Below are positions 7,421-7,991 of a stretch of 64,000 nucleotides of DNA, one piece after another; the stretch's first letter is position 1, and each line of letters begins with the position of its first letter. The stretch is from an uncultured Clostridia bacterium. Its GTDB lineage: Bacteria > Bacillota > Clostridia > TANB77 > CAG-508. The notes beneath the pieces were generated by a model. It saw only the letters and a list, made by a program, of their open reading frames with translations. It ran no database searches and was not told the DNA's origin. Location of the stretch: the NCBI GenBank assembly GCA_934140005.1, contig CAKPBB010000001.1, positions 159,147-223,146 of the forward strand. The letters are read 5' to 3'. A program made the position numbers and the translations under genes.

Positions 7421-7822
7421 ATGGAAAATAAGAATTACAAAGATGAACAATTTGATAGTTTTTTAACAAAAACTATTATATTATCTTCAAAAAGATATTT
7501 CAAAAAAGAAATTAATACTAATAGAAAGGAGCAAATAATTTTTGATGATCAAAATTACTCTGCCTTTATACAAGGCTTTTTTGACTCTCAAAATCCTAAT
7601 TTTGAGTCTACTATCGATTTATCTCTTTCTGTAAAAGAGGCCTTAAAATCACTGTCTGCTATTGAGCAATCAGTGATTTTTTTGCTATTTAATGAGGATT
7701 TATCTCAAAAAGAAGCTGCACAAATTCTTGAAATATATTCAAAAACTGTTAGCAAAATAAAAATTAGAGCAATAGATAAATTAAAAAAATATTTCAAGGA
7801 GGATTTTGAAAATGAAAGATAA
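7421..7822 (+). CDS. TcdR/UviA-family (group 5) sigma factor, C-terminal two-thirds (regions 3-4) only
   Basis: Start ATG 7421 after GGGAGG. C-terminal ...LSAIEQSVIFLLFNEDLSQKEAAQILEIYSKTVSKIKIRAIDKLKKYF is a region-4 HTH. It resembles the TcdR C-terminus as recalled from memory. Region 2.1-2.2 is absent. Confidence 0.5.
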   Translation: MENKNYKDEQFDSFLTKTIILSSKRYFKKEINTNRKEQIIFDDQNYSAFIQGFFDSQNPNFESTIDLSLSVKEALKSLSAIEQSVIFLLFNEDLSQKEAAQILEIYSKTVSKIKIRAIDKLKKYFKEDFENER

Positions 7823-7991
7823 AAATATATATGAATTAGGAATATTAGCACAAAAAGGTAATGAAATGGCCATGTTAGAGATAATAGATAGAAAGAAACC
7901 TTTACTCAAAAAATATAGTTTTGGTGATGAGGATAGATACCAATATTTAATACTAAAACTAATTGAAGGAATAAAAAATTATAAATTTTAA
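7812..7991 (+). CDS. TcdR/UviA-family sigma factor N-terminal fragment (region 2-like, 59 aa)
   Basis: IYELGILAQKGNEMAMLEIIDRKKPLLKKYS aligns with the TcdR N-terminus FYELIVLARNNSVDDLQEILFMFKPLVKKLS. RBS AAGGAGG. Overlaps the stop of the preceding ORF. Confidence 0.45.
   Translation: MKDKNIYELGILAQKGNEMAMLEIIDRKKPLLKKYSFGDEDRYQYLILKLIEGIKNYKF

What the first reader, a model, noticed from the sequence alone, without database searches (positions are those of the whole stretch)
7421..7991. TcdR/UviA-family sigma factor present as two swapped fragments (C-terminal part first, N-terminal part second)
ORF 7421..7822 (134 aa) carries regions 3-4 of a group-5 sigma (the TcdR/UviA/BotR/TetR family) but lacks region 2.1-2.2. 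The next ORF, in another frame and overlapping by 11 nt, encodes exactly that missing N-terminal segment (IYELGILAQKGNEMAMLEIIDRKKPLLKKYS vs TcdR FYELIVLARNNSVDDLQEILFMFKPLVKKLS). 134 + 59 aa is about one full TcdR-size protein. A C-then-N order could arise from a tandem duplication followed by deletions. It could also be a split sigma that reassembles, or decay. The palindrome CCCAAATT-TT-AATTTGGG overlaps the RBS of the first ORF (7390-7410).
Basis: partly seen in the sequence, partly recalled or inferred. Interest (0 to 1): 0.55.

Follow-up and report, generated by a model that had tools for sequence, protein, structure and literature searches.

The report
Split sigma factor in mobile element
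The two "swapped fragments" are not a broken gene but a conserved pair of small genes, of the same type as orf7/orf8 of the conjugative transposon Tn916, that together carry the parts of one sigma factor and probably switch on a mobile element's excision genes.

Summary
ORF1 (7421..7822, 133 aa) carries a sigma region 2.3/2.4-like helix plus region 4. ORF2 (7812..7991, 59 aa, 11-nt overlap) carries the missing region 2.1-2.2.

It is not decay. The pair, in this order, occurs in 76 of 80 related loci, from about 70 species-level Clostridia genomes. ORF2 is 59 aa in 69 of the 76. Both genes are under purifying selection (dN/dS 0.28 and 0.12). No unsplit relative was found among 1.84 billion proteins.

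The pair has the same Pfam make-up (Sigma70_r4, then HTH_16/PF12645) and the same neighbourhood (divergent HTH_3 gene upstream, xis-int downstream) as Tn916 orf7-orf8. [quoted passage not shown] The ORF2 model (pLDDT 95) matches the first three helices of ECF sigma-2 domains. Joining ORF2 to ORF1 in silico improves and extends the sigma-model match.

Specific TcdR/UviA membership is not supported. The best reading is a two-subunit sigma factor of an integrative element's regulatory module. Assembly on RNA polymerase is inferred, not shown.

The palindrome is part of a conserved, covarying leader RNA structure that buries ORF1's ribosome-binding site.

The parts
7421..7822 (+). ORF1 (133 aa). 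It has a sigma region 2.3/2.4-like helix (residues ~8-29), a poorly conserved linker, and sigma region 4 (residues 74-123). It is the counterpart of Tn916 Orf7.
   Evidence: Pfam Sigma70_r4 E 3.4e-10; TIGR02937 profile positions 45-164/165. Local alignment to 8x6g_H residues 80-101. 30% identity over 60 aa to Tn916 Orf7, E 2e-6. Hundreds of homologues of 130-135 aa. dN/dS 0.28.
7812..7991 (+). ORF2 (59 aa). A three-helix protein equivalent to sigma regions 2.1-2.2 (the first three helices of sigma-2). Pfam HTH_16. It is the counterpart of Tn916 Orf8.
   Evidence: PF12645 E 1.5e-6; Tn916 Orf8 hits the same family at E 5.8e-27. Family profile against PDB sequences: sigmaF, FliA and SigW sigma-2. 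AF2 model pLDDT 95.4. Foldseek top 13 PDB hits are ECF sigma-2 domains, TMq 0.62-0.76. dN/dS 0.12.
7796..7803 (+). Shine-Dalgarno AAGGAGGA for ORF2, embedded in the 3' end of ORF1, 8 nt before the ORF2 ATG.
   Evidence: Read from the sequence. An AGGAG-type SD is kept before ORF2 in loci with every junction type.
7393..7410 (+). Palindrome, read as an RNA hairpin (CCCAAAT / ATTTGGG). Its 3' arm overlaps the SD of ORF1 (GGGAGG, 7408-7413).
   Evidence: Compensatory changes CCTAAAT/ATTTAGG, CTCAAAT/ATTTGAG and CCCGAAT/ATTCGGG. Pair counts.
7367..7418 (+). Three-way junction that buries the ORF1 ribosome-binding site. The outer helix is GTGTTC (7367-7372) with GAACAC (7413-7418), enclosing two hairpins.
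   Evidence: Window MFE -21.3 kcal/mol, z -3.2, 0/200 shuffles as stable. 94% of cells paired against 42-58% in slid controls; 7 of 14 pairs with changes on both sides; 0/500 shuffles.
7215..7330 (+). Promoter -10 box (TATAAT, 7215-7220) and the 5' part of the leader. The 5' box GGGCTTAAT (7228-7236) can pair with ATTAAGCTT (7317-7325, followed by a T-run; terminator-like). Alternatively it can pair with TTAGGCCC (7388-7395) at the palindrome.
   Evidence: Alignment A7. Pair counts: 84% against 33-62% and 87% against 9-69%. Whole-leader fold z -4.0. No Rfam family.
6020..6277 (-). Divergently oriented HTH_3 (Xre-type) regulator, in the position of Tn916 orf9. Candidate repressor of the ORF1-ORF2 operon.
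   Evidence: Pfam HTH_3 E 7e-12. An HTH_3 gene holds the same position in L001-L008 and in Tn916. No sequence similarity to Orf9 itself.
7998..8109 (+). Conserved non-coding block after ORF2. It holds the box GGAGAGAATTTT (7998-8009), a -10-like TATAGT (8030-8035), a conserved transcript start region (GAAGGGCAAATTTTAAG...CACTATAT), and a terminator-like hairpin at 8067-8099 with a T tail.
   Evidence: Alignment of 57 distinct downstream regions. Terminator scan: 2 found against 0.2 expected.
9225..9437 (+). Excisionase-like gene (HTH_17).
   Evidence: Pfam HTH_17 E 2.4e-5 and TIGR01764 E 1.9e-5, both just under their cut-offs. 35% identity over 26 aa to Tn916 Xis, E 1e-4.
9556..11247 (+). Tyrosine integrase (563 aa) at the right end of the element.
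   Evidence: Pfam Phage_integrase E 4e-18. 30% identity over 126 aa to Tn916 Int, E 5e-11. Host capsule genes follow. The flanks beyond the integrase differ between copies of the related element.

Best explanation
ORF1 and ORF2 are the two subunits of a split sigma-70-family factor. They belong to the regulation module of an integrative mobile element of uncultured gut Clostridia.

What the computations show:
- The two genes are always separate and always in the order sigma-4 part then sigma-2 part.
- They are co-oriented and overlap or abut, and ORF2 has its own strong SD.
- Both are under purifying selection.
- ORF2 folds as the first three helices of a sigma-2 domain (regions 2.1-2.2). In all sigma factors this is the part that docks on the beta-prime clamp helices.
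- ORF1 supplies the fourth sigma-2 helix (regions 2.3/2.4, -10 recognition and melting), a linker, and sigma-4 (-35 recognition, beta-flap binding).
- The break lies in the loop between regions 2.2 and 2.3.

What is inferred: the two proteins, made from one bicistronic mRNA, reassemble a complete sigma-2 domain on core RNA polymerase. They then direct it to element promoters, leading to read-through into xis/int. This matches what the ICE review PMC5812530 describes for Tn916 Orf7/Orf8, and it parallels SigO-RsoA, where both halves are needed.

The operon appears to be transcribed from a housekeeping-type promoter (TATAAT at 7215-7220) next to a divergent Xre-type regulator. A structured ~200-nt leader adds further control.
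For: - Domain content and split point.
- Reassembly in silico against TIGR02937: ORF1 alone scores 43.7 bits (profile 45-164). Genomic order ORF1+ORF2 scores 43.5 bits (45-164). ORF2+ORF1 scores 47.6 bits. ORF2+ORF1 merged at the shared KNYK scores 55.5 bits (29-164). A genuine one-piece sigma, TetR/BotR, scores 49.4 bits (27-162).
- The same test on Tn916: Orf7 alone matches only profile 105-164. Orf8+Orf7 matches 38-164 and aligns nearly end to end with SigW models (10-177/187).
- Structure: the ORF2 model has pLDDT 95.4 and three helices. The top 13 Foldseek PDB hits are all ECF sigma-2 domains (SigC, ShbA, sigmaE, SigW, AlgU, CnrH). The top viral-library hits are phage sigma factors.
- Conservation: 435 and 484 homologues with fixed lengths. 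The pair is present in 76 of 80 loci. Junctions vary (-11, -8, -1, +1 to +4 nt) but nearly always leave two ORFs. dN/dS is 0.28 and 0.12.
- Context is identical in type to Tn916 orf9/orf7/orf8/xis/int.
- Precedent for a sigma-4 gene followed by a sigma-2 gene acting as one sigma: PMC8103513, PMC10028694.
Against: - No physical or functional evidence of ORF1-ORF2-RNAP assembly exists here.
- The AF2 model of a natural fusion (P0126) had low confidence (pLDDT 57) and could not show packing of the two parts.
- Homology to SigO/RsoA themselves could not be tested.
- Direct ORF2 against Tn916 Orf8 similarity is not significant by BLASTP; the link is through the shared Pfam family only.
- Foldseek E-values for the 59-aa model are not significant on their own (0.4-3). 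The argument rests on the uniform identity of the top hits.
- No cognate promoter was identified.
- Literature on Tn916 still calls Orf8 merely an HTH regulator (PMC12229494).
Confidence: 0.6

Rival explanations
1. The two proteins do not form one sigma. ORF1 would be a sigma-4/HTH-type DNA-binding activator acting with the host holoenzyme. ORF2 would be a free sigma-2 mimic that modulates RNA polymerase, for example by competing with host sigma for the beta-prime clamp helices, or by acting as a co-activator or anti-sigma-like partner.
For: ORF2 is far more conserved than ORF1 (57-100% against 44-99% identity; dN/dS 0.12 against 0.28). That pattern would fit a protein contacting a conserved host target. 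Databases annotate such proteins simply as HTH proteins (PMC12229494). The promoter-like block after ORF2 has a housekeeping-type -10.
Against: ORF1 carries a region 2.3/2.4-like helix that makes sense only as part of a sigma-2 domain. The two sequences are colinear with one sigma model across the junction. The strict adjacency and coupling of the two genes in 76 loci, and the SigO-RsoA precedent, favour a joint factor.
Confidence: 0.25
2. The ORFs are decaying remnants of a rearranged sigma gene (pseudogene fragments), or an assembly or structural artefact of this window.
For: The order is C-terminal part first. A different sigma gene nearby (4970..5446, minus strand) really is frameshifted. 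One related locus (L039) has lost ORF2 through a deletion.
Against: The same two ORFs, with fixed lengths, occur in about 70 independent species-level genomes and thousands of metagenome contigs. Both are under purifying selection. ORF2 is nearly invariant in length (59 aa in 69 of 76 loci).
Confidence: 0.02
3. The functional product is a single circularly permuted polypeptide (ORF1-ORF2 fusion), made by programmed frameshifting in the 11-nt overlap.
For: Fused forms exist: P0126 (180 aa) and the in-frame 190-aa ORF in L028.
Against: Junction architecture varies (-11, -8, -1, +1, +2, +3, +4 nt; relative frames 0, 1 and 2). No conserved slippery site was seen. An SD and ATG for ORF2 are always kept. 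Only 2 fusions occur among hundreds of sequences, and both arise from indels.
Confidence: 0.03

Closest known systems
Tn916 Orf7 / Orf8 (regulation module of the Tn916/Tn1545 conjugative transposons)
   Same: The two Pfam families occur in the same order: a Sigma70_r4 protein of ~135-140 aa followed at once by a small PF12645 HTH_16 protein. The genes overlap. A divergent Xre-type HTH gene lies upstream and xis and a tyrosine integrase downstream. Concatenating the small protein in front of the large one restores a near full-length sigma alignment in both systems. Orf7/Orf8 are described as activators of their own promoter, leading to xis/int expression (PMC5812530).
   Different: Sequence relationship is distant. 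ORF1 and Orf7 share 30% identity over the sigma-4 part only. ORF2 and Orf8 are not significant pairwise. Int shares 30% over 126 aa. ORF2 is 59 aa against 76 aa, and the overlap is 11 nt against 4 nt. There is no tet(M)/orf9 antisense arrangement. Extra genes lie between ORF2 and xis. The hosts are uncultured gut Clostridia. Whether the element is conjugative is unknown.
SigO-RsoA (YvrI-YvrHa) two-subunit sigma factor of Bacillus subtilis
   Same: One operon carries the sigma-4-bearing protein first and the small sigma-2-bearing protein second. Both are required together for transcription (PMC8103513, PMC10028694, PMC7826278). This is the mechanistic model proposed here.
   Different: SigO-RsoA is a chromosomal acid-stress regulon, not a mobile-element switch. 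The exact split point in SigO-RsoA may differ; here it lies between regions 2.2 and 2.3.
Group-5 clostridial sigma factors TcdR / BotR / TetR / UviA
   Same: They are small sigma-70 relatives of AT-rich Clostridia of similar total size (133+59 aa against 178 aa for TetR). A weak colinear profile match exists at region 2 (hhalign E 0.0097).
   Different: They are single polypeptides linked to toxin or bacteriocin genes. The merged ORF2+ORF1 protein against TetR gives BLASTP E 1.8. TetR scores 253 bits on the BotR model TIGR03209, which is not among the listed (25 best) matches of ORF1 or of the merged protein.
ECF (group 4) sigma factors, e.g. sigmaE, SigW, SigC
   Same: The ORF2 model superposes on helices 1-3 of their sigma-2 domains. 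The best family model for the merged protein is sigma70-ECF TIGR02937.
   Different: ECF sigmas are single chains, usually paired with an anti-sigma factor. Here the sigma-2 domain is divided between two gene products, encoded in reversed order.

Membership tests
Sigma-70 family (TIGR02937 / Pfam Sigma70_r2 + Sigma70_r4) | Region 4 helix-turn-helix domain | tested here: met
   ORF1 residues 74-123 match Sigma70_r4 at 39.7 bits (cut-off 24.1).
Sigma-70 family (TIGR02937 / Pfam Sigma70_r2 + Sigma70_r4) | Complete region 2 (2.1-2.4) in the same polypeptide as region 4 | tested here: not met
   ORF1 covers only profile positions 45-164/165. Regions 2.1-2.2 are in ORF2. The full span 29-164 is reached only by joining ORF2 to ORF1 in silico.
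Sigma-70 family (TIGR02937 / Pfam Sigma70_r2 + Sigma70_r4) | Binds core RNA polymerase and confers promoter-specific initiation | not testable with these tools
   Needs biochemistry.
Group-5 sigma factors (TcdR/BotR/TetR/UviA) | Significant similarity to family members or to the family model (TIGR03209 BotR) | tested here: not met
   The merged protein against TetR gives E 1.8. TetR itself scores 253.5 bits on TIGR03209, which is not among the 25 listed matches of ORF1 or the merged protein. Only a weak profile match exists at region 2 (E 0.0097).
Group-5 sigma factors (TcdR/BotR/TetR/UviA) | Genetic linkage to a toxin or bacteriocin locus that it activates | tested here: not met
   The neighbours are an Xre-type regulator, small ORFs, xis and int. 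No toxin gene lies in the module.
Tn916-type Orf7/Orf8 regulatory pair | A ~140-aa protein with C-terminal sigma region 4, followed directly by a small PF12645 (HTH_16) protein | tested here: met
   Window. Tn916 copy in pCF10: Orf7 matches Sigma70_r4_2 at E 2e-10 and Orf8 matches HTH_16 at E 6e-27.
Tn916-type Orf7/Orf8 regulatory pair | Placed between a divergent HTH repressor gene and the xis-int recombination module of an integrative element | tested here: met
   HTH_3 at 6020..6277 (-), xis-like at 9225..9437, int at 9556..11247. The layout is the same in L001-L008, with different flanks beyond int.
Tn916-type Orf7/Orf8 regulatory pair | Membership of the Tn916 family proper (the >60% identity criterion used in PMC12229494) | tested here: not met
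   ORF1/Orf7 share 30% over 60 aa. ORF2/Orf8 are not significant. Int shares 30% over 126 aa. Xis shares 35% over 26 aa.
Tn916-type Orf7/Orf8 regulatory pair | Positive control of its own promoter and of xis/int expression | not testable with these tools
   Described for Tn916 in the review PMC5812530. No expression data exist for this element.
[quoted passage not shown] | Sigma-4 and sigma-2 functions on two polypeptides encoded in one operon, sigma-4 gene first | tested here: met
   Operon order for yvrI-yvrHa is given in PMC8103513.
[quoted passage not shown] | Sequence homology to SigO and RsoA | not tested
   The B. subtilis sequences are not in any reachable collection. ORF2 hits no NCBIfam model at E <= 1.
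[quoted passage not shown] | Both subunits required together for holoenzyme formation and transcription | not testable with these tools
   Inferred only.

The most novel reading that the evidence does not exclude
Orf7/Orf8-type gene pairs (a sigma-4 protein plus a PF12645 "HTH_16" protein) may be obligate two-subunit sigma factors throughout Tn916-like and related integrative elements. On this reading they are split inside the sigma-2 domain, at the loop between regions 2.2 and 2.3, and encoded in permuted order. That arrangement would be a relic of tandem duplication, traced by the shared KNYK junction motif. "HTH_16" would then be a mis-named half sigma-2 domain. The pair would act as a built-in AND gate for excision. 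In this Clostridia lineage it would be gated further by an undescribed structured leader RNA with alternative pairings that hides the ribosome-binding site of the sigma-4 half.
Probability: 0.5. Interest if true: 0.6.

Novelty: new member of a known kind. Interest (0 to 1): 0.4.

Why it matters
Tn916-family elements are major carriers of antibiotic resistance, and how Orf7 and Orf8 trigger excision is still poorly understood. If these pairs are split sigma factors, three things follow. The excision switch would become directly testable with two small proteins plus core polymerase. PF12645 would gain a concrete meaning as a half sigma-2 domain. The only characterised two-subunit bacterial sigma (SigO-RsoA) would be joined by a large family borne on mobile elements. 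Natural split sigmas are also useful AND-gate parts for synthetic biology (PMC10028694). For the genome scan itself, the practical lesson is that this pattern is a normal gene arrangement, not a broken gene.

Tried and rejected
1. tblastn of ORF1 and ORF2 against plasmids and phages gave one weak Paenibacillus hit for ORF1 and nothing useful for ORF2. The family is essentially confined to uncultured Clostridia.
2. ORF2 alone against PDB sequences gave nothing. A narrow ORF2 profile against a single ECF sigma by hhalign also gave nothing. A broader family profile was needed.
3. The exhaustive representative search with the ORF2 profile found 39 hits, all of 128 aa or less apart from one 1378-aa protein with a local internal match (E 8e-5), and no intact full-length sigma relative. 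Contexts of two remote hits were on ~1-kb low-coverage contigs and were uninformative.
4. AF2 of the natural fusion P0126 with a mixed alignment had pLDDT 57, too poor for fold search or to judge packing. A first mixed alignment (A2) was misaligned and discarded.
5. The idea that ORF1's N-terminus is a degenerate paralogue of ORF2, suggested by that misalignment, was rejected by hhalign (E 0.3).
7. Genes next to a YvrJ-family gene on pE88 were checked as a possible SigO/RsoA pair and are not one.
8. A search for the conserved box GGGGAGAATTTT elsewhere in the window gave chance-level matches. No regulon could be defined.
9. A leader-peptide reading of the invariant AAGGAGG upstream of the three-way junction was considered and dropped. 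No reading frame is conserved.
10. The papers by MacLellan 2009 and Xue 2016 on SigO-RsoA are not held. No paper in the library links Tn916 with RsoA.
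Full report
**What is there.** The window is AT-rich DNA of an uncultured Clostridiales bacterium. The matching genome record is MAG UBA10678, with ORF1 99% and ORF2 100% identical. ORF1 runs from ATG 7421 to the stop at 7822 (133 aa). ORF2 runs from ATG 7812 to the stop at 7991 (59 aa). ORF2 is in the +1 frame and overlaps ORF1 by 11 nt. It has its own AAGGAGGA Shine-Dalgarno at 7796-7803, inside ORF1. 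The palindrome CCCAAATT-TT-AATTTGGG lies at 7393-7410 and runs into ORF1's Shine-Dalgarno GGGAGG at 7408-7413.

**What each ORF is.**
- ORF1 matches Pfam Sigma70_r4 (residues 74-123, E 3.4e-10).
- ORF1 matches the general sigma model TIGR02937 only from profile position 45 to 164 of 165. Its residues 8-29 (DEQFDSFLTKTIILSSKRYFKK) align with the region 2.3/2.4 helix of a solved sigma factor (8x6g_H residues 80-101).
- ORF1 therefore lacks regions 2.1-2.2 but holds the last helix of the sigma-2 domain, a linker and sigma-4.
- ORF2 matches Pfam PF12645 "HTH_16" above its cut-off.
- A profile of ORF2's wider family (alignment A3) hits, among all PDB sequences, the N-terminal sigma-2 part of sigmaF (1l0o_C residues 12-99, E 3.6e-4), then FliA and SigW.
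- An AlphaFold model of ORF2 is confident (pLDDT 95.4) and has three helices.
- Its 13 best Foldseek matches in the PDB are all sigma-2 domains of ECF sigma factors: SigC, ShbA, sigmaE, SigW, AlgU and CnrH. TM scores are 0.62-0.76 and rmsd 1.9-3.2 Å.
- In a library of viral protein models the top matches are again sigma factors. The E-values of these short matches are weak individually; the uniformity of the hits is the evidence.
- ORF1's N-terminus is not a hidden copy of ORF2 (hhalign E 0.3).

**An in-silico reassembly test against TIGR02937.**

| Sequence scored | Bits | Profile span |
|---|---|---|
| ORF1 alone | 43.7 | 45-164 |
| ORF1 then ORF2 (genomic order) | 43.5 | 45-164 |
| ORF2 then ORF1 | 47.6 | 29-164 |
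| ORF2 then ORF1, merged at the shared KNYK | 55.5 | 29-164 |
| TetR/BotR of C. tetani (real one-piece sigma) | 49.4 | 27-162 |

The tetrapeptide KNYK occurs at the end of ORF2 (..IKNYKF) and at the start of ORF1 (MENKNYKD..). The two ORFs are thus colinear halves of one sigma, broken between regions 2.2 and 2.3.

**It is not decay.**
- ORF2 has 435 homologues and ORF1 has 484 in the large protein collection. Those listed have lengths almost all of 59 aa and 130-135 aa.
- A scan of one genome per species found relatives of ORF1 in 72 genomes, nearly all labelled uncultured Clostridia/Clostridium, with a few binned as Bacilli, Erysipelotrichaceae or Bacteroides.
- In 76 of the 80 loci in hand, an ORF2 homologue follows ORF1 directly. 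Two exceptions are contig ends, one (L081) is a truncated match that was not examined, and one (L039) is a deletion reaching into the integrase.
- ORF2 is 59 aa in 69 of the 76 loci.
- The junction is the same 11-nt overlap in 52 loci. It also occurs as -8, -1, +1, +2, +3 and +4 nt. All but one of these versions keep two ORFs, and an SD-like sequence precedes ORF2 in those printed in full.
- Median pairwise dN/dS is 0.28 for ORF1 and 0.12 for ORF2.
- An exhaustive profile search of 1.84 billion representative proteins found no full-length, unsplit relative of ORF2.
- Two fused forms exist: P0126, and a 190-aa ORF in L028. Both are produced by small indels and are rare exceptions.

**The context identifies the system.** Upstream on the other strand lies an Xre-type HTH_3 gene (6020..6277). 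Downstream come small ORFs, an excisionase-like gene (9225..9437) and a tyrosine integrase (9556..11247). Host capsule genes follow. A close relative of the element carries the same module and sits next to different host genes in different metagenomes, so it is mobile.

This layout is that of the regulation and recombination modules of Tn916: orf9 (divergent HTH), orf7, orf8, xis, int. In the Tn916 copy on plasmid pCF10, Orf7 (140 aa) matches Sigma70_r4_2 and is annotated as a sigma-70 family factor. Orf8 (76 aa) is a full-length PF12645 HTH_16 protein (E 5.8e-27). The two genes overlap.

The window's proteins are only distant relatives:
- ORF1 and Orf7 share 30% identity over sigma-4.
- ORF2 and Orf8 are not significant pairwise.
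- Int shares 30% over 126 aa.
- Xis shares 35% over 26 aa.

This is therefore a different element with a Tn916-type module. The reassembly test works for Tn916 too. Orf7 alone matches only the sigma-4 part of the models. Orf8+Orf7 aligns nearly end to end with SigW models.

**How it most likely works.** In the literature Orf7 and Orf8 are treated as activators of their own promoter, with transcription reading on into xis and int (PMC5812530). Recent work still describes Orf8 only as an HTH-containing putative regulator (PMC12229494).

B. subtilis has a characterised two-subunit sigma, SigO-RsoA. Its sigma-4 and sigma-2 functions lie on two proteins encoded in one operon, sigma-4 gene first, and both are required (PMC8103513, PMC10028694, PMC7826278).

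Putting these together, the best explanation is that ORF1 and ORF2 form a two-subunit sigma factor. ORF2 would give the beta-prime-docking helices of sigma-2. ORF1 would give the -10-recognition helix and sigma-4. The domain content, complementarity, coupling and conservation are shown by the computations here. Assembly on RNA polymerase and promoter specificity are inferred. I put 0.6 on this.

The main rival (0.25) is that ORF1 is a sigma-4-type activator and ORF2 a separate sigma-2 mimic that modulates polymerase. Decay, artefact and programmed frameshift fusion are each very unlikely.

**Family questions.** Specific membership of the TcdR/BotR/TetR/UviA group is not supported. The merged protein against TetR gives BLASTP E 1.8. 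Only a weak colinear profile match exists at region 2 (E 0.0097). The best models are generic. Homology to SigO and RsoA themselves could not be tested. No paper in the searchable library links Tn916 Orf7/8 to RsoA or describes PF12645 as half a sigma. The key SigO-RsoA papers are not held, so prior statements cannot be excluded.

**Origin.** Both proteins keep the end-of-2.2 motif ([NK][YF]K), which is what overlapping remnants of a tandem duplication would leave. Merging at that motif fits the sigma model best. This is suggestive only.

**The palindrome and the leader.** The palindrome is one hairpin of a conserved structure.
- In 50 distinct upstream sequences, two helices pair in 94% of cells against 42-58% for shifted controls. 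One helix is CCCAAAT/ATTTGGG. The other is GTGTTCC/GGAACAC, immediately 3' of the SD. Compensatory changes occur in 7 of 14 pairs, and no shuffle of 500 reaches this.
- In the window they form a three-way junction that buries the ribosome-binding site of ORF1 (-21.3 kcal/mol, z -3.2).
- Further upstream, a 5' box (GGGCTTAAT, 7228-7236) lies just after a conserved TATAAT. It can pair with ATTAAGCTT at 7317-7325, which is followed by a T-run and looks like a terminator. Alternatively it can pair with TTAGGCCC at 7388-7395, which overlaps the palindrome's 5' arm. Both pairings are supported above controls.
- No Rfam family matches.
- This looks like a switch-like leader controlling production of the sigma-4 half. 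Its trigger is unknown.

Directly after ORF2 comes another conserved non-coding block. It holds a box (GGAGAGAATTTT), a -10-like TATAGT, a conserved transcript start region and a terminator-like hairpin at 8067-8099. It is a candidate target or read-through control point, but I could not define a regulon.

**Verdict.** The object is a new, diverged member of a known kind of module (Orf7/Orf8 type), with a mechanistic reading (two-subunit sigma) that is well supported in silico but untested. Interest is moderate.

Noticed in passing
window 7215-7420: The ~200-nt leader of ORF1 is conserved across about 50 loci. Its 5' box GGGCTTAAT has two mutually exclusive pairings: a terminator-like helix followed by a T-run, or pairing with the 5' arm region of the RBS hairpin. 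It also has a three-way junction that occludes the SD. No Rfam family matches. It may be an undescribed cis-regulatory RNA.
   Followed up: partly
window 7348-7365: A nearly invariant AAGGAGG followed by a T-rich run lies between the terminator-like helix and the three-way junction. No conserved start codon or reading frame follows it, and its role is unexplained.
   Followed up: partly
window 7998-8109: A strongly conserved non-coding block follows ORF2 directly. It holds the box GGAGAGAATTTT, a -10-like TATAGT (8030-8035), a conserved 5' transcript region (GAAGGGCAAATTTTAAG...CACTATAT), and a terminator-like hairpin at 8067-8099. Its position resembles the terminator/antiterminator region between orf8 and xis of Tn916 (PMC11658703).
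   Followed up: partly
window 7977-7988 and 7430-7441: The tetrapeptide KNYK occurs at the C-terminus of ORF2 (IKNYKF) and the N-terminus of ORF1 (MENKNYKD). Related motifs ([NK][YF]K) recur in most homologous pairs. They may be a trace of a tandem duplication that produced the permuted order.
   Followed up: partly
L028:6001-6573; protein P0126; L039:6330-6700: Rare variants exist. L028 has an in-frame ORF1-ORF2 fusion of 190 aa. A metagenome protein, P0126, is a 180-aa fusion. In L039 a deletion joins the end of ORF1 to the C-terminal part of the integrase.
   Followed up: yes
window 3832-5446 (minus strand): A cargo ECF sigma gene (4970..5446) is interrupted by a frameshift near 4990-5000 (CTTCGGAG where CTTGGAG would keep the frame). 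Without it, the sigma-4 helix would continue (GETIENTKVLVHRGKKELRKIL) and read without a stop into the downstream 396-aa membrane protein. This is either a real pseudogene, a sequencing error, or a sigma/anti-sigma fusion.
   Followed up: partly
window 6365-7054: The ORF between the HTH_3 gene and the ORF1 leader encodes a protein with an N-terminal membrane segment, a coiled stretch, and a receiver-like domain. The Response_reg match is 28 bits, just under the cut-off of 30.2. It is absent from the related element in L001-L008.
   Followed up: no
window 9556-11247: The integrase is 563 aa here but 450 aa in the related element (L001-L008). The extra length lies in the N-terminal half.
   Followed up: no
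window 23642-50539: Four consecutive giant ORFs (2009, 2545, 1819 and 2407 aa) lie on the plus strand, well outside the mobile element. They were not examined.
   Followed up: no
L010:11744-11923 (C. tetani pE88): The tetanus-toxin plasmid carries a YvrJ-family gene a few kb from tetX and tetR. In B. subtilis, yvrJ belongs to the SigO-RsoA regulon. The two neighbouring hypothetical genes checked are not a SigO/RsoA-like pair.
   Followed up: partly
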